Shown in pieces: positions 9,916-29,687 of a stretch of DNA of 64,000 bases. Numbering within the stretch: position 1 is the first letter of the stretch; the number at the start of each line of letters is the position of its first letter. Source of the DNA: Candidatus Levyibacteriota bacterium (GTDB taxonomy: Bacteria; Patescibacteriota; Microgenomatia; Levybacterales; GWA1-39-11); the NCBI GenBank assembly GCA_036788695.1, contig DAIQMY010000001.1, positions 313,773 to 377,772 on the forward strand, written 5' to 3'. The notes under the pieces are model-generated. The model ran no database searches and had not been told where the DNA came from. It worked only from the letters and a program-made list of their open reading frames with translations. Made by a program: the position numbers and the translations under genes.

Positions 9916-10224
9916 ATGCCAAAAGGAAGAATAAGAGTTAGACTAAAATCATATGATCCCAGGATTATAGATAGTACGTGTCAACAAATCTTAGACACGG
10001 CAATTCGTACTGGAGCAAAAGTAGTTGGTCCTGTACCTCTTCCTACTCAACGATCTATGTTTGCAGTTAATAAATCTGCGTTTGTTGATAAAAACGCGCA
10101 AGAACATTTTCAAATTAAAACACATAAACGCCTTATTGATATTATGTCCCCAACAGATAACACTATAGAATCCTTAATCCACTTAGATCTCCCAGCAGGT
10201 GTGGATGTAGAAATTAAGATGTAA
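9916..10224 (+). CDS. rpsJ: 30S ribosomal protein S10
   Basis: MPKGRIRVRLKSYD... Shine-Dalgarno AAGGAG 7 nt upstream of ATG 9916. The ORF-track start at 9898 is a TTG inside the terminator T-tract. Confidence 0.95.
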   Translation: MPKGRIRVRLKSYDPRIIDSTCQQILDTAIRTGAKVVGPVPLPTQRSMFAVNKSAFVDKNAQEHFQIKTHKRLIDIMSPTDNTIESLIHLDLPAGVDVEIKM

Positions 10225-10225
10225 C

Positions 10226-10600
10226 ATGTCTTTATTGGAAAGAATACGTGCTCCATTTAAAAAAGCAAATCATTTTCCACCCGTGGTTTTTCCCTCAAGT
10301 AAAGAAGTAAAGAAGACCCCCACAACTGAAAATCCATATGCGAATAATTCTTTAAATGACTTTTTAAAGATTAATTCATTTGAAAAATTATCAACAGAAG
10401 AGCGGATTCAAATTTCTAAAAACCTTCGCAAGATGGCAGAAGAAGCAGAGAGCGAATTTCATGAAAAAAGTGCGATTCGAGACAGAGATGAGAGCGTGAA
10501 ACTTATGAGAATAGTGTTTGAATTGGAGAAAATGAATAATTACCAGACAGATACATCTGAGGTGAATCAGGATTTTTCATCTTCCAAGCATCTAAAATAG
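10226..10600 (+). CDS. Hypothetical hydrophilic K/E-rich protein inserted between rpsJ and rplC
   Basis: 124-aa ORF starting 2 nt after the rpsJ stop. No recognisable domain. Codon usage resembles neighbours. Confidence 0.45.
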   Translation: MSLLERIRAPFKKANHFPPVVFPSSKEVKKTPTTENPYANNSLNDFLKINSFEKLSTEERIQISKNLRKMAEEAESEFHEKSAIRDRDESVKLMRIVFELEKMNNYQTDTSEVNQDFSSSKHLK

Positions 10601-10750
10601 ATGGGATACGTTTCCATAGAGAGTTTAGCCTCGTTGCGAGCTTGCATTTTGCTTACGACTTCTATATAATAACTTTTACTCATGTTTAGGTTTACTACCG
10701 AGACTGAATGGAACACTACATAAGAGCTTAGCTGCATTTTTTTGCGTATG

Positions 10751-10778
10751 AAGCGACTTTATGTAGTCGCTTTTTTTG
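10751..10778 (+). promoter_or_regulatory. Terminator-like hairpin + U-tract immediately upstream of rplC start (putative attenuator)
   Basis: AAGCGACT-TTATGT-AGTCGCTT, a perfect 8-bp stem, followed by T7. It ends 12 nt before the rplC ATG. Confidence 0.5.
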
Positions 10779-10789
10779 TGTTTAAACAT

Positions 10790-11671
10790 ATGTCTTTACA
10801 AGCAATTATTGGGAAAAAAATAGATCAGACGCAGGCATTTCTGGAAGACGGAAGACGAATTCCTCTTTCACTGATTTCTGTGTCTGGAAATGTTATTGCA
10901 CAAGTAAAGACATTGGAAAAGGACAAATATACGTCTGTACAGCTTGGATTTGGAGATAAAAAAAAGGTAAATAAAGCAACAGAAGGACATGTAAAAAAAG
11001 CGGGACTTACAAAAACACCCCGCTTTTTTCGTGAAGTAAAAGTTGAAGATATCACAGGATATGAGGTTGGGACAGTCGTAAACGTTGAGGAAATGCTTGA
11101 GCTAGGAGACGTTATTGATGTAACTGGAACATCAAAGGGAAAAGGATATGCTGGGGTAGTTAAAAGACATGGGTTTAAAGGTGGACCGAGAACGCACGGA
11201 CAGTCTGATCGTGAACGCGCGCCTGGTTCAATCGGTCAAACAACAACACCTGGACGTGTTTATAAGGGAAAAAGGATGTCCGGGCGTATGGGAAATGAGC
11301 GTGTGACTATTAAAAATCTGACAGTAGTTGATATTAAAGATGGCATAATTTATGTTCGTGGTTTGGTTCCAGGGGTGAAGGGGTCATTAGTAATGATTTC
11401 AAAAGTGAAAGAAGATAAGAGAAGTAGAGCCACAAAGAAGAAATTTGTTCCTCTTTTCTCAATCAAAGAAGAGGTTCTTGAAGAAAAAAGCGTAGAGCCT
11501 GTTGTTGTAGAGACTGTAGAAGTTGAGACACTTCCCGAAGATCCACAAAAAGTTGTTGAAGAAAAGATAGAGGAAACAGCTGCGCCTATAGAAATAGCAA
11601 AAGAAGAAGTAAAAGTAGACGATAAACCTAAAAAAGAAGCTGTATCTGAAGGAAAAGAGGAGGATAAGTAA
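10790..11671 (+). CDS. rplC: 50S ribosomal protein L3 with long K/E-rich C-terminal extension
   Basis: MSLQAIIGKKIDQTQAF start. L3 core through ~residue 200, then ~90 aa charged tail (KVKEDKRSRATKKK...EGKEEDK). Confidence 0.9.
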   Translation: MSLQAIIGKKIDQTQAFLEDGRRIPLSLISVSGNVIAQVKTLEKDKYTSVQLGFGDKKKVNKATEGHVKKAGLTKTPRFFREVKVEDITGYEVGTVVNVEEMLELGDVIDVTGTSKGKGYAGVVKRHGFKGGPRTHGQSDRERAPGSIGQTTTPGRVYKGKRMSGRMGNERVTIKNLTVVDIKDGIIYVRGLVPGVKGSLVMISKVKEDKRSRATKKKFVPLFSIKEEVLEEKSVEPVVVETVEVETLPEDPQKVVEEKIEETAAPIEIAKEEVKVDDKPKKEAVSEGKEEDK

Positions 11672-11673
11672 TT

Positions 11674-12465
11674 ATGGCTGAAAAAAAGATAAAAAAAGAA
11701 GCAAGCGCACAAAAGACAAAAACTCTTGATAAAAAAACAGTGGTGAAGCCCGTAAAGGAGAATGTGAAGATTATGAAAGATACAAAAAAGAGCAAAATGA
11801 AAACAAACGAGCCAAAGGACGCAGTAATCTCCACAAAAGAAACATTTTCAGTAGATGTATATGGATTAGATGGCAAGGTATCAGGGAAGGTAAATATTCC
11901 CACTGAAATCTTTAAAGCAAAGGTAAACCTTACTTTAATGGCTCAGGCTGTAAGAGTATATCTTGCAACGCAAAGAAGCGGAACATCTTCTACAAAAACA
12001 AGATCAGAAGTTTCAGGAACAACAAAGAAGATGTATCGCCAGAAGGGTACGGGTCGTGCGCGCCATGGAGCCGCAAAAGCGCCTATTTTTGTGGGTGGTG
12101 GAATTGCTTTTGGTCCAAAACCGAGAAGCTTTGCTCTAACCCTTCCGAAGAAAATGAGAAGGAAAGCGCTTTTCTCTGCCTTAACAAGTAAGTATTCAGA
12201 AAATAATCTTATGATTTTAGATGCAGCACAGGCTACAGGGAAAACAAAAGAAATTGTAAACACATTTAAAAATCTTGGACTAACAAAAAAAGTAACTATT
12301 GTGGTTACTCCAGAAGAAAAACAGATTTCCCGTGCAGCAAGAAATATTAAGGGAGTAACAGTTGAGCACGCTGCAAACTTAAATACCTATAGCGTTTTAA
12401 ATAGTAATACTGTTATTTTTGCAAAAGATGCACTTAGTATTTTGCAGAGTACGTTTTTAAAATAA
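11674..12465 (+). CDS. rplD: 50S ribosomal protein L4 with K-rich N-terminal extension
   Basis: L4 core (GTGRARHGA...PIFVGGG...FGP). ~55-aa lysine-rich N-terminal leader. Confidence 0.9.
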   Translation: MAEKKIKKEASAQKTKTLDKKTVVKPVKENVKIMKDTKKSKMKTNEPKDAVISTKETFSVDVYGLDGKVSGKVNIPTEIFKAKVNLTLMAQAVRVYLATQRSGTSSTKTRSEVSGTTKKMYRQKGTGRARHGAAKAPIFVGGGIAFGPKPRSFALTLPKKMRRKALFSALTSKYSENNLMILDAAQATGKTKEIVNTFKNLGLTKKVTIVVTPEEKQISRAARNIKGVTVEHAANLNTYSVLNSNTVIFAKDALSILQSTFLK

Positions 12466-12466
12466 T

Positions 12467-12817
12467 ATGAAAACTATAATTATTAAACCATTAATTACAG
12501 AAACGTCTATGAAGGATGCAGCTTCAAACAAATTTACGTTTTCTGTTTTTAAAGATGCTACAAAGACAGAGATAAAGAAAGCAGTTGAGAAAACATTTAA
12601 CGTACACGTTATAGGAGTTACAACCCTGAATTTAACAAGGCGAAAAACTGTATTTACCAAATTTGGTCGTAAAAAAACTACTGAGAATATAAAAAAAGCA
12701 CGAGTAGAACTTGAAAAAGGACAAACCATTCCAGCATTTGAAGTTGATGGTAAAAAAGAAGAACCAACTGTTAAAAAAGAGAAAAAAGAAAAGAACAAAA
12801 AAGAAGAAAGTAAGTAA
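12467..12817 (+). CDS. rplW: 50S ribosomal protein L23 with K/E-rich C-terminal tail
   Basis: L23 core (FTFSVFKDATKTEIKKAVEKTFNV.V). Tail KKEEPTVKKEKKEKNKKEESK. Confidence 0.85.
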   Translation: MKTIIIKPLITETSMKDAASNKFTFSVFKDATKTEIKKAVEKTFNVHVIGVTTLNLTRRKTVFTKFGRKKTTENIKKARVELEKGQTIPAFEVDGKKEEPTVKKEKKEKNKKEESK

Positions 12818-13902: not shown

Positions 13903-14346
13903 ATGCAATACGTAGCAGAAGCAAAAAATGTTAGAATATCACCTCGGAAGATGAGGTTGGTAGTTGATGGGGTAAGGAAAATGCCAATAGATAAGGCAAT
14001 AGCAACTCTTTCAATAGCAAGTCAGAGAGCGTCTGACCCTATTAAAAAGGCCTTGGAAAGTGCTATTGCGAATGCGGTTCATAATGGTCAGGTTAAAAAA
14101 GAGGAGCTATATATATTTGAAATGTTTGTAAATGAAGGAACCTCATATAAAAGGTTCCACTATGCAGGAAGAGGAAGGACACGACCATATAAGAAGAGAT
14201 CAAGTCACTTAAAAGTGATACTTGGAGTAAAGGACGTAATAGCAAATCCTTTAACTGAGATTGAAGAAGGAAAAAAAGACGAAAAACCAATGAAGACAAT
14301 AAAGAAAAGAGAAACTAAGAAAGGAGAAAAACAAGTTAGTAAATAA
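13903..14346 (+). CDS. rplV: 50S ribosomal protein L22 with K-rich C-terminal tail
   Basis: L22 core (AEAKNVRISPRKMRLV). Tail EEGKKDEKPMKTIKKRETKKGEKQVSK. Confidence 0.9.
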   Translation: MQYVAEAKNVRISPRKMRLVVDGVRKMPIDKAIATLSIASQRASDPIKKALESAIANAVHNGQVKKEELYIFEMFVNEGTSYKRFHYAGRGRTRPYKKRSSHLKVILGVKDVIANPLTEIEEGKKDEKPMKTIKKRETKKGEKQVSK

Positions 14347-15049: not shown

Positions 15050-15460
15050 ATGTTAACACCAAGAAGAACAAAATATAGAAAACAATTTAGACCAAAAACG
15101 GTTGAAAAACCATCTAGGGGTGGAAATTATGTAGCCTTTGGAGAGTTTGGATTAAAGGCTATGAATTCAGGAAATGTTTCAAGTAGGCAGATAGAGGCAG
15201 GGAGAAAGGCTATGACCCATTTTACAAAAAGAGGCGGACGTATCTGGATTCGAATTTTTCCTGATCGCCCAACTACTCGCAAGCCGCCTGAGACGAGAAT
15301 GGGTGGAGGTAAGGGTGATTTGCATGAATATGTAGCACCTGTTCAGACTGGAAGAATAATTTTTGAAATGGGTGGAATACCAGAAACTATAGCTCGAGAA
15401 GCAATGAGATTGGCAGCAAATAAGCTACCTATAAAATGCAGAGTAGTTGAAAGAAAATAG
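15050..15460 (+). CDS. rplP: 50S ribosomal protein L16
   Basis: MLTPRRTKYRKQFR... Confidence 0.95.
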   Translation: MLTPRRTKYRKQFRPKTVEKPSRGGNYVAFGEFGLKAMNSGNVSSRQIEAGRKAMTHFTKRGGRIWIRIFPDRPTTRKPPETRMGGGKGDLHEYVAPVQTGRIIFEMGGIPETIAREAMRLAANKLPIKCRVVERK

Positions 15461-15478
15461 AAGAAAAAGATTAAAATT

Positions 15479-15694
15479 ATGAAAAAGAAAGATTTAGAAA
15501 ATTTGCGCTTGAAAACAAAAAATGAACTCACTGTTCTTGCGGGCTCACTTTGGATTGAAATCATGAAGGCACAAATAGACAAGAAAACTAGTGGTAAAGT
15601 AAAAAATGTGAATGAGGCAAAAAATAAGATGAAAGACAGAGCACGAATTTTAACAATTATTGGAGAAAAGGAAAGGGAGGTAAAACATGTCTAA
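15479..15694 (+). CDS. rpmC: 50S ribosomal protein L29
   Basis: 71 aa. DLENLRLKTKNELTVLAGSL matches the L29 helix. Confidence 0.85.
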   Translation: MKKKDLENLRLKTKNELTVLAGSLWIEIMKAQIDKKTSGKVKNVNEAKNKMKDRARILTIIGEKEREVKHV

Positions 15695-15935
15695 AAAAAC
15701 ATTTATTGGAAAAGTAGTTTCAGACAAGATGAAGAACACTATAATCGTTGCAATTGAAAGAAATATTGCGCACCCACGTTATGGGAAACTGATTAAAAGA
15801 ACACAAAAACTTATGGCTGATACGGGTGGGGTGGATGTAGTTGTTGGTGATACCGTTAAGATTGAAGAGATCAAACCAATGAGTAAAAATAAAAATTTTA
15901 AAGTTGTGAAAAAGGAGGAGGACAAGTCTAAGTAA
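15687..15935 (+). CDS. rpsQ: 30S ribosomal protein S17
   Basis: FIGKVVSDKMKNTIIVAIER...HPRYGK. Confidence 0.9.
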   Translation: MSKKTFIGKVVSDKMKNTIIVAIERNIAHPRYGKLIKRTQKLMADTGGVDVVVGDTVKIEEIKPMSKNKNFKVVKKEEDKSK

Positions 15936-15951
15936 ATATATGCTCAACTCA

Positions 15952-15988
15952 TCCCGATAGATCGGGACGAGCCTCAACATATTTTTTT
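15952..15988 (+). promoter_or_regulatory. Hairpin + T-tract at S10/spc operon boundary (putative attenuator/processing site)
   Basis: 7-bp stem TCCCGAT/ATCGGGA (15952-15967). T7 at 15982-15988. It sits in the 72-bp gap between rpsQ and rplN, which is the S10/spc operon boundary in E. coli. Confidence 0.35.
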
Positions 15989-16007
15989 CTTGATAAACTC
16001 ATAAAAA

Positions 16008-16382
16008 ATGGTACAACACAGAACAAAATTAATAGTTGCAGATAATTCAGGCGTTAAAGAGCTGATGGTAATCCACATTTATGGTGGATCAACAAGAAGG
16101 AAAGGTCATATTGGTAGTATTCTTGGATGTGTTGTTAAGAGGTCACTTCCAAATACTCAGTTTAAAAAGGGTGACAAGGTAAAAGCAGTACTGGTTCGCT
16201 CAAGGAAAGAATTTAAGAGAATTGACGGAACATATATTAGATTTTCGGAGAACGCAGGAGTTGTTATTGAGAATGCGGAAACAAAAAACCCTGTAGGAAC
16301 AAGAATTTTTGGTCCTATAGCACGAGAGATTAAAGAGGAGGGGTTTGCAAAGATTGCATCTTTAGCAAGTCACGTTGTTTAA
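16008..16382 (+). CDS. rplN: 50S ribosomal protein L14
   Basis: [19 protein letters not shown]...IRF..NA.V......P.GTRIFGP.ARE. Confidence 0.95.
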
Positions 16383-16398
16383 GAAAGGAATTATAAAA

Positions 16399-16698
16399 AT
16401 GAAAATAAAAAAAGGAGATACAGTTAAAATTACTCGCGGAAAAGATAAGGGAAAAGAGGGAATTGTTGAAAAAGTGAAAGCAGGAACAATTGTTGTTCCA
16501 GGAGTAAATGAATTCAAGAGACACATAAAGAAGAGTGCAACTGGACAAAAGTCTGAGATTGTTACTATTACAAAACCAATGCAGGCTTCAGTAGTTGCGC
16601 TTATTTGTCCAAAGTGTAAAAAGCAAACACGTATTGGGTATTTGATAAAAGAAGGCGGAAAAGTAAGAATCTGTAGAAAATGCAAAAAAGAGATTTAA
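16399..16698 (+). CDS. rplX: 50S ribosomal protein L24 with C-terminal 4-Cys zinc-ribbon
   Basis: KOW motif KIKKGDTVKITRGKDKGKEG. Start likely ATG 16399, with AAGGAA SD. The ORF-track start 16375 overlaps rplN. C-terminus CPKC...(15 aa)...CRKC. Confidence 0.88.
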   Translation: MKIKKGDTVKITRGKDKGKEGIVEKVKAGTIVVPGVNEFKRHIKKSATGQKSEIVTITKPMQASVVALICPKCKKQTRIGYLIKEGGKVRICRKCKKEI

Positions 16699-16713
16699 AA
16701 AAATACTAAAACT

Positions 16714-16827
16714 ATGAAAGTACAAGCGTCAATAAAAAAAAGATGTAAAAAATGCAAGGTTATTAAAAGACGAGGAGTCCTGTTTATAATTTGTGAGATT
16801 CCAAAACATAAACAAAGACAGGGATAA
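16714..16827 (+). CDS. rpmJ: 50S ribosomal protein L36
   Basis: 37-aa ORF not in the ORF track, read by hand: [37 protein letters not shown]. Matches the L36 C-x2-C-x12-C-x4-H zinc-ribbon consensus. Confidence 0.9.
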
Positions 16828-16853
16828 GTTCAGATAATACTATAAATAAAATT

Positions 16854-17396
16854 ATGCAATCATACAAAGAAACATTTGAGAAAGAGATTATAAAAAAGCT
16901 TCAGCAAGATTTGGGGCTTAAAAATGTAATGTCTGTGCCTAGACTGAAAAAAATTGTGGTAAACACCAGTACTAAGGATTTTCTTTCTGATAAGAAAAAT
17001 TTGGAGCGGGCAGCAGAAGACCTGGGGACAATTACTGGACAAAAGGCAAGGATAGCTCGGGCAAAGGTATCTATCGCAACATTTAAGTTGAGAGAGGGAG
17101 ACAAGCTTGGTCTAGTTGTAACCCTAAGAGGCAAGAGGATGTATGATTTTTATGAAAAACTTGTTAAAATTGTCTTTCCTCGGGTTCGAGATTTTTCAGG
17201 TGTATCCGAGAAGTGGTTGGATGGACAGGGAAATTTAAGTATTGGCTTTTCAGAAAATACAGTGTTTCCTGAAATAGATCCAGGAAAGGTAGAAAAAATA
17301 CGTTCATTACAGGTAACAATTGTTACAAATGCGGAAAACAATAAGCAGGCAAAAGCATTATTTGAGGCAATGGGCATGAAGTTTAGAAAAAATTAA
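16854..17396 (+). CDS. rplE: 50S ribosomal protein L5
   Basis: 180 aa. [15 protein letters not shown] motifs. Confidence 0.95.
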
Positions 17397-17401
17397 AATA
17401 T

Positions 17402-17587
17402 ATGGCAAAAAAATCAAGCATAGTAAAGTTTCAACACAAACAGAAATTTAAAACAAGAGATGTAAACAGGTGCGCACTTTGTGGGCGTTCCCGTTCCTAT
17501 CTACGCCGTTTTGGTTTGTGTAGAATTTGTTTTAGAGAAAAAGCATTGAAAGGAGAATTGCCAGGAGTAACAAAGGCGAGTTGGTAA
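17402..17587 (+). CDS. rpsN: 30S ribosomal protein S14 type Z (zinc-binding)
   Basis: 61 aa. [23 protein letters not shown]. Confidence 0.95.
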
Positions 17588-17599
17588 GAAAATAAATAT

Positions 17600-17986
17600 A
17601 TGTATACTATTGGAGACTTTTTAATTCAAATAAAAAATGGGTATATGGCTCGTAAAAAAGAGCTAGTAGTTCCTTATGCAAAGATAGTGTTATCTATGGG
17701 GCAAATTCTAGCAAAAGAGGGATATATAAAGGCTGTAGAGGTTGTAGATAACAACGGTCGAAAGATGATTGCAATAGAATTGCTTTATAAAAATAAAAGA
17801 CCAGCACTTAAGGATGTGAAGCTTGTTTCAAAACCATCTCTTCACCGATATGTAACAAAAACAAGGATTAAAAGATTTGCGGGGAACTTTGGAATTTCAG
17901 TTGTCTCGACAAGTAGGGGAGTTATGACAGGAAAGGAGGCTTTACAGCAAGGAGTTGGTGGAGAGTTATTGTGTGAGATCTCCTAG
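17600..17986 (+). CDS. rpsH: 30S ribosomal protein S8
   Basis: DFLIQIKNGYMARK... Confidence 0.92.
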   Translation: MYTIGDFLIQIKNGYMARKKELVVPYAKIVLSMGQILAKEGYIKAVEVVDNNGRKMIAIELLYKNKRPALKDVKLVSKPSLHRYVTKTRIKRFAGNFGISVVSTSRGVMTGKEALQQGVGGELLCEIS

Positions 17987-18975: not shown

Positions 18976-19443
18976 ATGGATAATAATTCTATGGAAAAAT
19001 TTGAAGAAAAGGTAATTCAGGTTTCCCGAGTTTCAAAAAAAACAAAAGGTGGGAATAAGGTTAGATTTGCCGCATTGGTAGTTGTAGGTGACAGACGAGG
19101 AAAAGTTGGAATTGGACTAGGTAAGTCTGGAGATGTAGCGCAGGCAATAGCAAAGGCTGTATCTTATGCGAAAAGAAGGATGATTTTTGTACCAATACAT
19201 AATGAAACAATCACGCAGCAAATCAGAGTAAAAAAAGGTGCTGCTCAAGTGCTTTTAAAGCCTGCACCTAAGGGTACCGGAATTATTGCAGGAGGAGCTA
19301 TAAGAAGCGTTGTTGAAGTAGCAGGAATTAGGAATATATCATCAAAGATTCTAGGATCTTCCAATAAAGCAGGAAATGCTCAAGCTACTTTTATGGCCTT
19401 AACGCAACTCGCGCAAGCTTATGAAGCAAGGGAGAACACATAA
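18976..19443 (+). CDS. rpsE: 30S ribosomal protein S5
   Basis: VVGDRRGKVGIGLGKS.DV..AI.KA. It is followed directly by rplO, with no rpmD (L30) between them. Confidence 0.95.
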   Translation: MDNNSMEKFEEKVIQVSRVSKKTKGGNKVRFAALVVVGDRRGKVGIGLGKSGDVAQAIAKAVSYAKRRMIFVPIHNETITQQIRVKKGAAQVLLKPAPKGTGIIAGGAIRSVVEVAGIRNISSKILGSSNKAGNAQATFMALTQLAQAYEARENT

Positions 19444-19444
19444 T

Positions 19445-19885
19445 ATGCAATTACATAATTTACCAAAAATAACAACAAAAGGATTAAGACGTGTAGGACG
19501 TGGACATGGATCAGGGCGTGTTAAAACTTCAGGGCGAGGAACAAAAGGTCAAAAAGCAAGAAGAGATATTAAGCTTCACTTTGAGGGCGGCGCGCTTCCT
19601 TTAATAAAGCGCTTACCATTTTTGAAGGGTAAGGGTAGAAATAAAACAATTAATCATGACCAAATTGTTTTAAATGTTAAGGACTTTAAAGGACTTCCAG
19701 AAAAAACGGTGATTGATTTAGATTTTCTTAAAAAATATAAACTGGTAGATATTGATAAAGCAAAAACGTATGGAGTAAAAATATTAGGAGAGGGAGAGGT
19801 TACAGTTCCATTAATAGTGAACTTCCCAGTTTCAAAAATAGCCAAGACAAAGATAGAAAAAGCGGGCGGGACAGTTTCCGTATGA
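19445..19885 (+). CDS. rplO: 50S ribosomal protein L15
   Basis: MQLHNLPK...[25 protein letters not shown]. Start ATG 19445 lies 1 nt after the rpsE stop and in frame with the ORF-track 19421. Confidence 0.92.
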
Positions 19886-21179: not shown

Positions 21180-21731
21180 TTGATATATATGAAATTAATC
21201 TTAATAGGTATACAAGGAAGTGGTAAGTCTACACAAGGAAATATACTCTCCGAGAGATTGCATATACCCTATCTATCTTCTGGGCATATATTTCGTGAAA
21301 TGGCAAAAGAGAAAACTCCATTGGGTCGTTATATTAAAGAGACCATGAATGCAGGATTTTTGATCCCAGATGACAAAACACTAGAAATAGTTATTGAGTA
21401 TTTAGGGCGTTCAGAATATCGGGATGGTTATATTCTTGATGGATTTCCTAGAACTGTTCCACAGGCTGAAGCATTTCCAAATGGAGTAGAAAAGGTAATC
21501 TATCTGAGGGTGACTGATAAAGAGGCATTATGGAGATTAGCCGGTCGCGATGAGGAAGGAGTACGTGAGGACAACACATTGAAAGCTATTTTGAAGCGCA
21601 TAAATGAATTTCATACGAAAACAGAGCCTGTAATTGAATACTACAGGGAAAAAGGTAAACTACTTGAGATAAATGGGGAGAGACACATAGAAGAAATTGC
21701 CTCTGAGATACTTTCAGATATTCAGAAATAA
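21180..21731 (+). CDS. adk: Adenylate kinase (short-LID type)
   Basis: P-loop IGIQGSGKSTQG. NMP-binding GFLIPD...ILDGFPRT. Start may be ATG 21189 (MKLILIG). Confidence 0.85.
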   Translation: MIYMKLILIGIQGSGKSTQGNILSERLHIPYLSSGHIFREMAKEKTPLGRYIKETMNAGFLIPDDKTLEIVIEYLGRSEYRDGYILDGFPRTVPQAEAFPNGVEKVIYLRVTDKEALWRLAGRDEEGVREDNTLKAILKRINEFHTKTEPVIEYYREKGKLLEINGERHIEEIASEILSDIQK

Positions 21732-22301
21732 ATGATAAAACCTCAAATTGTAGGCATTACAGGAGCGTTTGGAAGTGGAAAATCTACTGCTTCTGATTTT
21801 ATTACCTCATTTGGATATAAGAAAATAAGATTATCGAAGTTTTTAGAGGATGAGCTCTTGTCTTCAGGAGATGTAGCTATAACTCGTAAGAAGCTTCAAG
21901 ATCTTGGTAACTCTTGGCGTAATGAGCATGGAAGCGGAGTACTAGGGAAAAAAGCAGTTGAATTTATTTTCACAAACAATGTTGAGAAAGTGGTTGTAGA
22001 GGGTATTCGAAATATTGAAGAGGTTCAAGAATTAAAAAAAATAGGTAAGGTGACTTTAATTGCGCTTATGGTTGATAGAAATGTTAGGTATAAGAGGTTA
22101 GAAAAGTTGACGAGAAGAGAAAAATTAACACCTGAATTATTTGAGAAATTAGACGCACGAGATTTGGGACTGGGGGAGAGTAAGTCTGGATTACAAACTG
22201 CTCTCTGTATCGCGTTATCAGACATATACATACAAAATAATACAAACGAGAAAGAGTTATGCGCTAAATTAGAAAAAGTGATAGCTGAGATTGAGAGGTA
22301 A
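21732..22301 (+). CDS. P-loop nucleotide kinase, CoaE/dNMP-kinase-like (paralogue 2)
   Basis: IVGITGAFGSGKST Walker A near N-terminus. 189 aa. Family assignment uncertain. Confidence 0.5.
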   Translation: MIKPQIVGITGAFGSGKSTASDFITSFGYKKIRLSKFLEDELLSSGDVAITRKKLQDLGNSWRNEHGSGVLGKKAVEFIFTNNVEKVVVEGIRNIEEVQELKKIGKVTLIALMVDRNVRYKRLEKLTRREKLTPELFEKLDARDLGLGESKSGLQTALCIALSDIYIQNNTNEKELCAKLEKVIAEIER

Positions 22302-22334
22302 TAAAAGAGATTTTTTAGTAACTATATTTTAAAA

Positions 22335-22907
22335 ATGAAAAACATATATGTTTTAATAGGGCCGCCATTATCCGGGAAGGAAACACAGGGAGAGTTATTG
22401 GAGACTTCTTTAGGAGGAATTCCAAGATTTTCAATGGGACATCTAATTCGTGAGGCAAGAAGTAAGGATCAAAGATTTGAAAACGCTTATCAACAATATA
22501 GTATGCAAGGGAAGCATTTACCCAATGAAATAAAATTTCCGCTTTTAGTAGATGAGATGAATAAGGCAAGTCAGTCTGGTTTTATTTTGGATAATTTTCC
22601 TGCAACAGAAGAAGACGTGGAATATTTAGAGAGATATCTTGCGGGAAAAGATTTGAATATGAAAACTGTAATTGTGTTAAATGTTTCAAGGGATGAAATG
22701 AAAAAGCGCTTTGAAATAGCAAAAAACAGGCGAGGTCGTGCAGATGATACAATTGAAAACATTGTTGATAGAAGAGAAATCCAAGATAGTGATCGTATGG
22801 CAGTGCTTAATCATTATGAAAAGATGGGATTGTTGAGGATGATTAATGGGGAGCAGTCTGTAGAGAAAGTTCATCAGGACATATTAAGGGAGATTGATCA
22901 ATCATAA
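22335..22907 (+). CDS. Adenylate/UMP-CMP kinase-family NMP kinase (paralogue 3)
   Basis: IGPPLSGKETQG P-loop. GFILDNFPAT NMP-binding. RRGRADD LID-like motif. Confidence 0.6.
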   Translation: MKNIYVLIGPPLSGKETQGELLETSLGGIPRFSMGHLIREARSKDQRFENAYQQYSMQGKHLPNEIKFPLLVDEMNKASQSGFILDNFPATEEDVEYLERYLAGKDLNMKTVIVLNVSRDEMKKRFEIAKNRRGRADDTIENIVDRREIQDSDRMAVLNHYEKMGLLRMINGEQSVEKVHQDILREIDQS

Positions 22908-23792: not shown

Positions 23793-24014
23793 ATGGCGCA
23801 TCAAGGATCAATAGAAGTAGACGGAATCGTAAAAGAGGTTTTGCCCAATACTTTATTTAGAGTTGAAATAGAAGGTGGGAGGGTAGTTCTCTGTCATCTT
23901 TCGGGTAAGATGAGGATTCATTTTATAAAAATTTTACCAGGGGATAGGGTACGGATAGAAATGACGCCATACGATAAAACAAAGGGAAGAATTACCTTTA
24001 GACATAGAAGCTAA
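23793..24014 (+). CDS. infA: Translation initiation factor IF-1
   Basis: 73 aa, S1-like OB fold. Starts [29 protein letters not shown]...IL.GD.V..E..PYD motif. Confidence 0.95.
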
Positions 24015-24042
24015 AAATTCAGTAGTGTGATCTATTAAAAAT

Positions 24043-24435
24043 ATGAGAGTAGCAGGTGTAAATGTACCAGATGGAAAAAGAGCAGATATAGCGCTTACCT
24101 ATATTTATGGGGTAGGTCGTTCTAACGTGAAAGAAATTTTAGTAAAAGCTAAAATAGAGCCTGATAGAAGAATAAATACTCTATCTGAGGAAGAATTAAC
24201 ACAAATCCAGAAGGCACTTGATTCAATTAAAATCGAAGGAGACTTAAGGGGCGAAATTTTTGAAGACATTAAGCGTCTTAAAAATATAAGTTCTTATAGG
24301 GGATTAAGACATGCAAGAAATCTCCCAGCGCGAGGTCAAAGAACTCGTTCTAATGCTCGTACAAAGCGTGGAAAGAGAGTTACTATTGGTGCAATCAAAA
24401 AAGAGGTTGCAGAAAAAATGGGACTTAATAAGTAG
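24043..24435 (+). CDS. rpsM: 30S ribosomal protein S13
   Basis: MRVAGVNVPDGKR...YIYGVGRS. Confidence 0.95.
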   Translation: MRVAGVNVPDGKRADIALTYIYGVGRSNVKEILVKAKIEPDRRINTLSEEELTQIQKALDSIKIEGDLRGEIFEDIKRLKNISSYRGLRHARNLPARGQRTRSNARTKRGKRVTIGAIKKEVAEKMGLNK

Positions 24436-24866: not shown

Positions 24867-25454
24867 ATGGCAAGATATACAGGACCAAAACATAGATTAG
24901 CAAGACTTGAGGGTGTAAATATTCTCGAGAAAACATCTAATTCTCTTGAGCGTAGATTGAATATTATTCCTGGAATTCATGGAAAGAAAGGGAGAAGAAA
25001 AACGTCAGAGTATGGACTACAGTTAAGGGAGAAGCAAAAGCTTAAAAAAATATATGGTCTTTTGGAAAAGCAATTTAGAAATTACGTTGATCTTGCACAG
25101 AGTAAGAAAGCAAATACAGAAGATGCCTTGGTTCAACTTCTTGAAACAAGACTAGATAATATTGTTTACCGTTTGGGTTTTGCTCGATCCAGAAATCAGG
25201 CTCGTCAAATGGTTTCACACAAGCACGTATTCGTAAATGGAAAAAAAGTAAATATCCCTTCATATAGAGTAAAAGAAGGAGATTCAATTACTTTTGCAAC
25301 TAAAATGATTAAGACTGAGGAAGAAGAAGCACGCGCAGTTTTACCATTTGTTGAAAGAGAAATAGATTCTGGTAAGCTTATGAGGCTTCCTGAGAGTAAA
25401 GATGTGCCAAATCCAGTAGATTATCAATTGGTTATTGAATTTTACTCTAGATAG
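24867..25454 (+). CDS. rpsD: 30S ribosomal protein S4 (non-zinc form)
   Basis: MARYTGPK..LARLEG. S4 RNA-binding domain. Confidence 0.93.
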   Translation: MARYTGPKHRLARLEGVNILEKTSNSLERRLNIIPGIHGKKGRRKTSEYGLQLREKQKLKKIYGLLEKQFRNYVDLAQSKKANTEDALVQLLETRLDNIVYRLGFARSRNQARQMVSHKHVFVNGKKVNIPSYRVKEGDSITFATKMIKTEEEEARAVLPFVEREIDSGKLMRLPESKDVPNPVDYQLVIEFYSR

Positions 25455-26533: not shown

Positions 26534-27010
26534 ATGAGAAAAAGAGTATTTGGTAAAAAATTAAAAAGAACAACGAATCAAAGAAAGGCGCTTTTTAGAT
26601 CGCTCACACAAGCGCTTGTTTTGCATGGTAGAATAAAAACAACGGAAGCTAAGGCAAAAGCAATAAAAGGAGAAATTGAAAAATTAATAACATATGCAAA
26701 GAATCATAAAGAAAACGCATATAACCACTTACAGCATCATGTGCACCCAAAAACAGCCGAGGGAATTATAACAATAGCACCAGTATTTGAAAATAGACCA
26801 GGAGGATACACAAGAATTATAAGAATTGGTGGAAGAAAAAAGGATAATGCAGCAATGGTATTATTGGAATTTGTAGAAAAGACACAGTCTGTTATCATTG
26901 AGGAACCAAAGAAAACTGAAAAGAAAGTTATTGAAAAAGCTACTAAAGAAAACGATAAAAAAATAAAGAAAGGAAAGGATGCAAAACCTAACAAAACCAA
27001 CAAAAAGTAA
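26534..27010 (+). CDS. rplQ: 50S ribosomal protein L17 with K-rich C-terminal tail
   Basis: L17 core (LGR...HR.ALFR.L...L..HGRI.TT.AKAK). Tail KKTEKKVIEKATKENDKKIKKGKDAKPNKTNKK. Confidence 0.9.
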   Translation: MRKRVFGKKLKRTTNQRKALFRSLTQALVLHGRIKTTEAKAKAIKGEIEKLITYAKNHKENAYNHLQHHVHPKTAEGIITIAPVFENRPGGYTRIIRIGGRKKDNAAMVLLEFVEKTQSVIIEEPKKTEKKVIEKATKENDKKIKKGKDAKPNKTNKK

Positions 27011-29616: not shown

Positions 29617-29687
29617 CGGGATGTAGTATAGTGGTAGTACGCTGCGCTGGGGGTGCAGTAGTCCGCGTTCGATTCGCGGCATCCCGA
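29617..29687 (+). tRNA. tRNA-Pro: tRNA-Pro (anticodon GGG)
   Basis: Hand-folded cloverleaf. Acceptor CGGGATG/CATCCCG. D-arm GTAT-AGTGGTA-GTAC. Anticodon stem CTGCG/TGCAG with loop CTGGGGG, anticodon GGG at 34-36. T-arm CCGCG-TTCGATT-CGCGG. Discriminator A. No encoded CCA. Confidence 0.85.

What the first reader, a model, noticed from the sequence alone, without database searches (positions are those of the whole stretch)
16399..16827. L24 has gained a 4-Cys zinc ribbon, and L36 (rpmJ) has moved to sit between rplX and rplE
The C-terminal beta-hairpin of L24 carries C-P-K-C ... C-R-K-C (CxxC-x15-CxxC), aligning to the non-Cys hairpin of B. subtilis L24 ([22 protein letters not shown]). This is a C+ zinc-binding form not usually listed for L24. 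Immediately downstream, a 37-aa L36 gene (absent from the ORF track) sits between L24 and L5 rather than after infA/secY where it normally lies. Both are departures in ribosomal architecture and gene order.
Basis: partly seen in the sequence, partly recalled or inferred. Interest (0 to 1): 0.5.

Follow-up and report, generated by a model that had tools for sequence, protein, structure and literature searches.

The report
Zinc-type L24; L36 gene moved
In this Levybacteria genome, ribosomal protein L24 is the already known four-cysteine zinc-binding type, and the tiny L36 gene has moved a few kilobases within the ribosomal gene cluster, a real but minor change shared by every Levybacteria genome sampled.

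Summary
Both observations are real. An intact 37-aa C+ rpmJ (16714-16827) lies between rplX and rplE. infA runs straight into rpsM with a 28-nt gap, and the 64-kb window holds no second rpmJ.

The Cys were not gained here, and the form is not unlisted. Thermus thermophilus uL24, present in hundreds of PDB ribosome entries, has the same four Cys at the aligned positions. A 2023 NAR paper (PMC10450194) lists uL24 among the Zn-binding proteins and surveys its C+ isoform in 2021 bacteria. The motif is invariant in the 120 nearest homologues. It is also common across CPR lineages, Clostridia, Anaerolineae and Acidimicrobiia, and was lost in one subclade of this lineage.

The rpmJ move is genuine. 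SecY places the window in Candidatus Levybacteria. All 13 Levybacteria loci (window included) carry rplX-rpmJ-rplE. All eight that reach infA have an empty infA-rpsM junction. They form one clade (199/200 bootstraps) whose sister clade keeps infA-rpmJ-rpsM, which points to a single ancestral move.

This is a small lineage marker. Gene callers often miss the relocated gene, which is the main practical consequence. Interest is low.

The parts
16399..16698 (+). rplX, encoding uL24 (99 aa) of the C+ (four-Cys) isoform
   Evidence: Pfam PF17136 3e-19 and KOW 4e-06. PDB uL24 hits down to 7.5e-17. AF2 model pLDDT 88.3 with TM 0.82-0.89 to solved uL24 chains.
16606..16617 (+). First knuckle, C70-P-K-C73
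   Evidence: Aligns residue for residue with the CPAC knuckle of T. thermophilus uL24. C70, P71 and C73 are invariant in 49 homologues.
16672..16683 (+). Second knuckle, C92-R-K-C95, at the end of the C-terminal beta-hairpin
   Evidence: Aligns with the CAKC knuckle of T. thermophilus uL24. C92 and C95 are invariant. Model strands 79-84 and 87-92 form the hairpin between the two knuckles.
16699..16713 (.). 15-nt rplX-rpmJ spacer
   Evidence: No + strand terminator-like site. In relatives this spacer is as short as 1-4 nt, and the last rplX codons read AAGGAGAT(A/T)TAA, which resembles a Shine-Dalgarno site.
16714..16827 (+). rpmJ, encoding bL36 (37 aa, C+ type: CxxC...CxxxxH), at a non-canonical site
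   Evidence: Pfam PF00444 3e-18. Only copy in the window. Found at the same site in 12 further Levybacteria loci.
16828..16853 (.). 26-nt rpmJ-rplE spacer
   Evidence: It is 2-5 nt in L081, L083 and L085.
16854..17396 (+). rplE, encoding uL5
   Evidence: Pfam Ribosomal_L5 and L5_C.
23793..24014 (+). infA, encoding IF-1
   Evidence: Pfam eIF-1a 4e-25.
24015..24042 (.). Empty canonical rpmJ site: a 28-nt infA-rpsM junction
   Evidence: The same junction is 1-55 nt in L081, L083, L087 and L089-L092. The sister clade has rpmJ here.
24043..24435 (+). rpsM, encoding uS13
   Evidence: Pfam Ribosomal_S13 6e-29.

Best explanation
The window comes from a Candidatus Levybacteria genome (Microgenomates, CPR). 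Its uL24 is the known C+ isoform. Two CxxC knuckles at the base and tip of the C-terminal beta-hairpin are the counterparts of the four Cys that hold a structural Zn2+ in Thermus thermophilus uL24. This state was inherited, since it is near-universal in the CPR relatives sampled, and was not gained here. Its inferred role is to clamp the hairpin without changing the fold. Separately, in the common ancestor of the sampled Levybacteria the native C+ rpmJ left its usual slot between infA and rpsM. It was placed about 7 kb upstream, in the rplX-rplE junction of the same operon cluster, most simply by duplication-insertion followed by loss of the original. It is now read as an internal gene of the spc cluster. 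The spacers are very short, and the Shine-Dalgarno-like last codons of rplX lie just upstream of its start. The gene product is unchanged, so only gene order differs. Shown here: gene identities, Cys homology and conservation, the empty canonical site, and monophyly of the rearranged loci. Inferred: zinc occupancy, co-transcription and coupling, and the duplication-then-deletion route.
For: Identity of the genes. The Cys align one for one with T. thermophilus uL24 ([29 protein letters not shown] against ICPKCKKQTRIGYLIKEGGKVRICRKCK). PMC10450194 states that T. thermophilus uL24 coordinates Zn and defines the (CXXC)-(CXXC) C+ isoform. Conservation: 120 of 120 nearest homologues have four Cys. 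In genome loci 75 of 80 have the four Cys, spanning Microgenomates, Dojkabacteria/WS6, several Parcubacteria phyla, Clostridia, Anaerolineae and Acidimicrobiia. Of the 150 nearest 50%-identity representatives, 123 are C+. The fold is unchanged. Taxonomy: SecY is 97% identical to a Levybacteria MAG, and many named Levybacteria follow at 67-79%. Relocation: rplX-rpmJ-rplE occurs in the window, L001, L002, L006, L008, L081, L083, L085, L087 and L089-L092. The canonical junction is empty in all eight of these that reach infA. All 13 form one clade in 199 of 200 NJ bootstraps on 7 proteins and 1148 columns. The sister clade (L005, L015, L086, L088; L003 lacks rpmJ at rplX-rplE, but its contig stops before infA) keeps infA-rpmJ-rpsM. 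The relocated L36 is closest to the sister clade's canonical copy, 31 of 37 residues against 25-28 for other lineages. No + strand terminator lies between rplX, rpmJ and rplE. Spacers are 1-4 nt in several relatives.
Against: Zinc binding is inferred only from homology and was not measured. Only about 20-kb pieces of the related genomes could be read. A second rpmJ elsewhere in a Levybacteria genome is therefore not excluded, though none occurs in this 64-kb window. A 37-aa protein carries little phylogenetic signal, so vertical descent of the relocated copy is suggestive and not proven. Sampling of uL24 was centred on a C+ query, and one of the six search patterns contained the Cys motif. The C+ fractions are therefore biased upward and do not settle whether C+ is ancestral for bacteria.
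Confidence: 0.88

Rival explanations
1. The four Cys of uL24 are a recent, lineage-specific gain, a new zinc ribbon invented in CPR or in this organism.
For: Model organisms such as E. coli, B. subtilis and S. aureus have the C- form at these positions. The classic 2001 list of Zn-ribbon ribosomal proteins, as I recall it, does not include L24.
Against: T. thermophilus has the same four Cys at the same positions. The isoform is described and surveyed in PMC10450194. It occurs in Clostridia, Anaerolineae, Acidimicrobiia and many CPR phyla. Within Levybacteria the only change seen is a loss (L006 and L008).
Confidence: 0.03
2. The rpmJ between rplX and rplE is an extra paralogue, and the functional canonical copy lies elsewhere in the genome.
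For: Many Proteobacteria carry two rpmJ genes, and some have lost the operon copy (PMC8046335). Whole Levybacteria genomes could not be scanned here.
Against: The canonical infA-rpsM slot is empty in all eight loci that cover it. No second copy occurs in 64 kb. This copy is the C+ type 1 form with all four ligands, not the C- rpmJ2/ykgO type. It is conserved and intact in 13 of 13 loci.
Confidence: 0.06
3. The relocated rpmJ was acquired horizontally and replaced the native gene, and did not arise by a move within the genome.
For: Only 37 residues are available, so origin is hard to resolve. Horizontal exchange of small Zn-ribbon ribosomal protein genes is well documented (Makarova et al. 2001, cited).
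Against: The relocated protein is most similar to the canonical-site copy of the sister clade, 31 of 37 residues against 25-28 of 37 for Clostridia, Thermus and other CPR. No mobile-element remnants or repeats lie in the very short flanking spacers.
Confidence: 0.08
4. The arrangement is an assembly or binning artefact, such as a chimeric contig or misjoin.
For: The source is probably a metagenome assembly. Several related MAG records carry clearly wrong taxon labels.
Against: The same junctions occur in 13 independent assemblies from different projects, including contigs of 525 kb, 250 kb and 243 kb. The junction sequences have diverged from one another.
Confidence: 0.01

Closest known systems
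C+ (zinc-binding) isoform of uL24, as in Thermus thermophilus 70S structures and as surveyed in PMC10450194
   Same: Same protein family. The CxxC...CxxC pair flanks the C-terminal hairpin, and the Cys align residue for residue. The overall fold is the same (TM 0.88 to 4v8a_AY).
   Different: The spacer is 18 residues against 19 in Thermus. The host is an AT-rich (36.7% GC) CPR bacterium, a group that paper did not sample (no mention of CPR or Patescibacteria). That paper ties C+ uL24 chiefly to growth at high temperature.
C+/C- alternation of small ribosomal proteins (L31, L32, L33, L36, S14, S18; Makarova, Ponomarev and Koonin 2001, 'Two C or not two C')
   Same: The pattern is patchy, with recurrent loss of the Cys ligands among close relatives. 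L005, L006, L008, L050 and L079 are C- among C+ neighbours.
   Different: No C+/C- paralogue pair of uL24 was seen in any locus. Nothing indicates a Zur-regulated switch.
Loss of rpmJ from the spc operon in Gammaproteobacteria (events P50-P52, PMC8046335)
   Same: rpmJ is one of the few genes that leave their slot in the otherwise very stable S10-spc-alpha cluster. Duplication followed by deletion is the proposed route.
   Different: In those cases the surviving copy is a pre-existing C- type paralogue (rpmJ2) outside the cluster. Here the C+ type gene stays inside the cluster, about 7 kb upstream, and the change is fixed across a candidate phylum-level lineage.
Canonical bacterial order ...secY-(adk-map)-infA-rpmJ-rpsM...
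   Same: All other genes of the cluster are in the usual order. L30 is absent, as is typical of CPR.
   Different: rpmJ lies between rplX and rplE, and infA abuts rpsM.

Membership tests
uL24 (bacterial ribosomal protein L24) | N-terminal KOW motif plus the L24 C-terminal domain, with significant matches to the family models | tested here: met
   PF17136 69.5 bits (cut-off 27) and PF00467 26.9 bits (cut-off 22.3). PDB uL24 chains match at up to 7.5e-17.
uL24 (bacterial ribosomal protein L24) | Gene lies directly after rplN in the spc cluster | tested here: met
   rplN occupies 16008-16382 and rplX 16399-16698.
uL24 (bacterial ribosomal protein L24) | uL24 fold | tested here: met
   AF2 model pLDDT 88.3. 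Foldseek TM 0.82-0.89 to solved uL24 chains.
C+ isoform of uL24 | (CXXC)-(CXXC) pattern, as defined in PMC10450194 | tested here: met
   C70-P-K-C73 and C92-R-K-C95. The definition is quoted.
C+ isoform of uL24 | Cys occupy the positions of the Zn ligands of T. thermophilus uL24 | tested here: met
   All four Cys align in the phmmer alignment.
C+ isoform of uL24 | A metal ion is actually bound | not testable with these tools
   Needs metal analysis or a structure of a CPR ribosome.
bL36, C+ (type 1) form | About 37-38 aa, match to the Ribosomal_L36 model, and CxxC...CxxxxH ligands | tested here: met
   PF00444 66 bits (cut-off 26.1). Ligands C11, C14, C27 and H32 are visible in the translation.
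bL36, C- paralogue (rpmJ2 / ykgO type) | Loss of the Cys/His ligands, a longer protein, and a location outside the ribosomal protein cluster | tested here: not met
   All ligands are present and the protein is 37 aa. A recalled ykgO-type query gives only 35% identity, against 63-68% for recalled C+ queries. The gene lies inside the cluster.
Canonical spc/alpha gene order | rpmJ lies between secY/infA and rpsM | tested here: not met
   The infA-rpsM gap is 28 nt and rpmJ is at 16714-16827.

The most novel reading that the evidence does not exclude
The rplX-rpmJ-rplE order is a clean, single-origin rare genomic change that defines Candidatus Levybacteria. Together with the near-universal retention of Zn-type uL24 (plus C+ uS14 and bL36) across CPR lineages, it would show that Cys-rich ribosomal proteins are an ancestral bacterial state with recurrent loss and not an adaptation to heat. 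It would also show that published reports of L36 being 'missing' from most Patescibacteria phyla are largely annotation artefacts.
Probability: 0.4. Interest if true: 0.3.

Novelty: new member of a known kind. Interest (0 to 1): 0.2.

Why it matters
The consequences are small but practical.

1. Relocated rpmJ is easy to miss. Gene callers skipped it in 6 of the 9 related loci for which gene calls were available. One published survey reports L36 as missing in 20 of 26 Patescibacteria phyla (PMC7137472). Surveys of ribosomal protein loss in CPR should therefore search six-frame translations and should not assume the usual position.

2. The rearrangement is a simple presence/absence marker for Levybacteria. 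Many public MAG records of this group carry wrong taxon labels, so such a marker is useful.

3. CPR bacteria add a large group, outside any growth-temperature survey, to the known carriers of Zn-type uL24. This bears on the published idea that these metal sites track growth temperature (PMC10450194).

None of this changes how the ribosome is thought to work.

Tried and rejected
- The literature hit for 'L24' plus zinc in the treble-clef zinc-finger classification (PMC4999995) concerns eukaryotic/archaeal eL24 (PDB 3U5E_W), an unrelated protein. I discarded it.
- Rfam at gathering thresholds found only one tRNA (29617-29687). It found no ribosomal-protein leader or other RNA near the finding.
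- The listing of cluster members returned no names or accessions for ten close L24 homologues. Taxonomy came from a SecY search instead.
- The promoter and terminator scan of 15400-17700 gave promoter-like hits at the chance level (10 found, 6.8 expected). It gave no + strand terminator, so there is no sign that rpmJ brought its own signals.
- The first bootstrap run with Biopython's distance calculator timed out. I repeated it with a numpy Kimura distance.
- No model coordinates were available to the script environment, so Cys-Cys distances in the AF2 model could not be measured.
- I considered a junction-specific degenerate DNA pattern for the metagenome collection. I did not run it, because no version was both specific for L36 and allowed by the pattern rules, and 13 independent loci already settle the question.
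- A link between the two traits (C+ L24 and moved rpmJ) is rejected. L006 and L008 have the moved rpmJ with a C- L24, and many lineages have a C+ L24 with rpmJ in the canonical place.

Full report
**What is at the coordinates**

The window is AT-rich (36.7% GC). On its + strand it carries a complete S10-spc-alpha ribosomal gene cluster. The order is tuf, rpsJ, a 124-aa ORF with no family match, rplC-rplD-rplW-rplB-rpsS-rplV-rpsC-rplP-rpmC-rpsQ, rplN, rplX, rpmJ, rplE, rpsN (the short 61-aa form), rpsH, rplF, rplR, rpsE and rplO (with no L30). Then follow secY, three adenylate-kinase-like genes, map, infA, rpsM, rpsK, rpsD, rpoA, rplQ and rplM.

The finding's interval covers two genes exactly. 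rplX (16399-16698) encodes 99 aa and matches Pfam ribosomal_L24 at 3e-19, plus KOW. rpmJ (16714-16827) encodes 37 aa and matches Pfam Ribosomal_L36 at 3e-18.

uL24 has exactly four cysteines, C70-P-K-C73 and C92-R-K-C95. They align with DPKT...AKKS of Staphylococcus aureus uL24. L36 has the usual C11/C14/C27/H32 ligands. infA ends at 24014 and rpsM starts at 24043, so nothing sits at the usual rpmJ site. tblastn with four L36 queries finds no other copy in the 64 kb.

**The four-Cys L24 is a known isoform**

A search of PDB sequences with the C-terminal 42 residues puts Thermus thermophilus uL24 on top. The alignment is Cys for Cys: window ICPKCKKQTRIGYLIKEGGKVRICRKCK against Thermus [29 protein letters not shown]. 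That chain is present in several hundred ribosome entries.

PMC10450194 (Nucleic Acids Res 2023) states that in T. thermophilus uS14, bS18, uL24, bL28, bL31, bL32, bL33 and bL36 coordinate zinc. It defines the C+ isoform of uL24 as (CXXC)-(CXXC) and surveys it in 2021 bacteria with known growth temperatures. That paper does not mention CPR or Patescibacteria.

An AlphaFold2 model built from 49 homologues (pLDDT 88.3) is an ordinary uL24 fold. It superposes equally well on C- proteins (S. aureus, TM 0.89) and on the C+ Thermus protein (4v8a_AY, TM 0.88). The cysteines therefore sit on the standard C-terminal hairpin and do not create a new domain.

**The Cys were inherited, not gained here**

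- All 120 nearest homologues in the 5.8-billion-protein collection have exactly four Cys.
- In a 49-sequence alignment with 55% mean column identity, C70, P71, C73, C92 and C95 are invariant.
- Among 80 genome loci, 75 carry the four Cys. These include Microgenomates, Gottesmanbacteria, Dojkabacteria/WS6, Pacebacteria, Nealsonbacteria and Staskawiczbacteria. They also include many Clostridia MAGs, an Anaerolineae MAG and an Acidimicrobiia MAG.
- Among the 150 nearest 50%-identity cluster representatives, 123 are C+, 20 lack any CxxC, and 7 are partial or truncated.

These samples are centred on a C+ query, and one of the six search patterns contained the motif. The fractions are therefore biased upward. 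Even so, they rule out a local gain.

C- forms are scattered among close relatives (L005, L006, L008, L050, L079). This is the recurrent-loss pattern long known for other small zinc-binding ribosomal proteins. Two of the C- cases, L006 and L008, lie inside the window's own lineage.

**The rpmJ move is real and dates to the ancestor of the sampled Levybacteria**

A SecY search places the window in Candidatus Levybacteria. The best hit is 97% identical, in a 250-kb contig of GCA_018062815.1, and many named Levybacteria follow at 67-79%.

Thirteen independent loci carry rplX-rpmJ-rplE: the window, L001, L002, L006, L008, L081, L083, L085, L087, L089, L090, L091 and L092. All eight of them that extend as far as infA have infA abutting rpsM, with gaps of 1 to 55 nt. 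These are the window, L081, L083, L087 and L089-L092.

I built a neighbour-joining tree from seven proteins: L14, L24, L5, S14, S8, L15 and SecY (1148 columns). The 13 rearranged loci form one clade in 199 of 200 bootstraps. The sister clade is L005, L015, L086, L088 and L003, and it groups with them in 195 of 200 (an earlier four-protein tree, agrees). Its members that reach that far keep infA-rpmJ-rpsM, and rplX abuts rplE in them. More distant Microgenomates, Dojkabacteria, Clostridia and Anaerolineae also have the usual order.

The relocated protein is most similar to the canonical-site L36 of the sister clade, 31 of 37 identities. It shares only 25-28 with other lineages. It is the C+ type, not the C- paralogue type.

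The simplest reading is a single move of the native gene within the cluster. A duplication-then-deletion route has been proposed for other rare changes in this cluster (PMC8046335).

**How the gene is probably expressed at its new place (inferred)**

In several relatives the spacers on both sides of rpmJ are only 1-5 nt (L081, L083, L087, L002). In the window they are 15 and 26 nt. The last codons of rplX in most members read AAGGAGAT(A/T)TAA, a Shine-Dalgarno-like sequence a few bases before the rpmJ start. No terminator-like site lies on the + strand between rplX and rplE.

rpmJ is therefore most likely co-transcribed and translated as an internal gene of the spc cluster. Nothing suggests any effect on the protein or on the ribosome.

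**Relation between the two traits**

There is none. L006 and L008 have the moved rpmJ with a C- uL24. Most CPR and Clostridia loci have a C+ uL24 with rpmJ in the usual place.

**What is new**

C+ uL24 is already described. What this work adds is that it is common across CPR, a group outside the published survey. I found no paper that mentions the position of rpmJ in Levybacteria. GenBank annotations of two Levybacteria MAGs already call L36 between L24 and L5, so the data are public but, as far as I could find, not discussed in the literature.

A practical point follows. In six other relatives the gene callers left the 119-250-nt rplX-rplE gap empty although the ORF is intact. One published survey reports L36 as missing in 20 of 26 Patescibacteria phyla (PMC7137472). 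Part of that figure is probably an annotation artefact.

**Limits**

- Zinc binding is inferred from homology only.
- Only about 20-kb pieces of related genomes could be read, so a second rpmJ elsewhere in a Levybacteria genome is not excluded.
- A 37-residue protein cannot firmly rule out horizontal replacement.
- The direction of C+/C- evolution across all bacteria was not reconstructed.

**Verdict**

The L24 part is already known. The rpmJ part is a genuine but minor gene-order variant specific to this lineage. Interest is low.

Noticed in passing
window 10226-10600 (+): A 124-aa ORF with no Pfam match sits between rpsJ and rplC. This slot varies among relatives: L081 has a 119-aa ORF on the opposite strand, L087 has a NUDIX gene, and L085 and L086 have nothing called there.
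   Followed up: partly
window 15948-15990 (+), between rpsQ and rplN: A GC-rich hairpin (CUCAUCCCGAUAGAUCGGGACGAG) is followed a few bases later by a run of seven U. It lies in the 72-nt gap at the S10/spc boundary. The fold is -15.8 kcal/mol with z = -2.3. The terminator scan did not list it. It could be an attenuator or a processing site.
   Followed up: partly
window 21180-22907 (+): Three tandem kinase-like genes lie between secY and map: adk, an AAA_18-type gene, and a second ADK-family gene. The closest relatives share this (L081, L083, L089, L090). The deeper Levybacteria L087, L091 and L092 have a single adk.
   Followed up: partly
window 18976-19885 (rpsE-rplO): There is no rpmD (L30) between rpsE and rplO. 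The same holds in the CPR loci, whereas the Acidimicrobiia and Anaerolineae loci have it. This is the known CPR hallmark.
   Followed up: partly
window 17402-17587 (+): rpsN encodes the short 61-aa form and carries CxxC...CxxC ([20 protein letters not shown]). With uL24 and bL36, at least three C+ ribosomal proteins lie in this cluster. uS4 (24867-25454) has no N-terminal Cys.
   Followed up: no
L081, L083, L085, L087, L091, L092 (rplX-rplE gaps): The intact relocated rpmJ was not called by the gene callers in these public assemblies. It was called in L089 and L090. A published claim that L36 is missing in 20 of 26 Patescibacteria phyla (PMC7137472) may therefore be partly an annotation artefact.
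   Followed up: partly
L006 and L008 (L24 at 10001-10303 in each): A Levybacteria subclade has lost all four Cys of uL24 (LIDPKKKKP...RISRISKE) while keeping the relocated C+ rpmJ.
   Followed up: yes
L020, L023, L026, L028, L039, L044, L045, L060, L074, L075, L079 (Parcubacteria-type loci): No infA, rpmJ or rpsM hit appears in the sequence available downstream of rplX (up to 10 kb; several contigs end sooner). Where map is present, the cluster appears to break after it. Whether L36 lies elsewhere or is absent in these genomes was not examined.
   Followed up: no
L001, L002, L005, L006, L008, L015, L046, L004, L003 (record titles): Several species-representative MAG records with CPR-type ribosomal clusters carry doubtful titles. 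Examples are 'uncultured Gammaproteobacteria bacterium', 'Bathyarchaeia archaeon' and 'Saccharimonadales'. These do not fit their placement among Microgenomates and Levybacteria in the trees.
   Followed up: partly
L007, L009, L012, L014, L016, L017, L019, L021, L022, L027, L029, L032, L035, L038, L041, L043, L059: In Dojkabacteria/WS6-like loci uL24 carries a 20-60-residue Lys-rich C-terminal tail after the second CxxC, giving total lengths of 123-165 aa. Where rpmJ is visible in these loci, L36 is 38 aa with a C-x-D-C-Y first knuckle.
   Followed up: no
window 10742-12817, 13903-14346 and 26534-27010: Long Lys/Glu-rich extensions are present on uL3 (C-terminal, about 90 aa), uL4 (N-terminal, about 60 aa), uL23, uL22 and bL17.
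   Followed up: no
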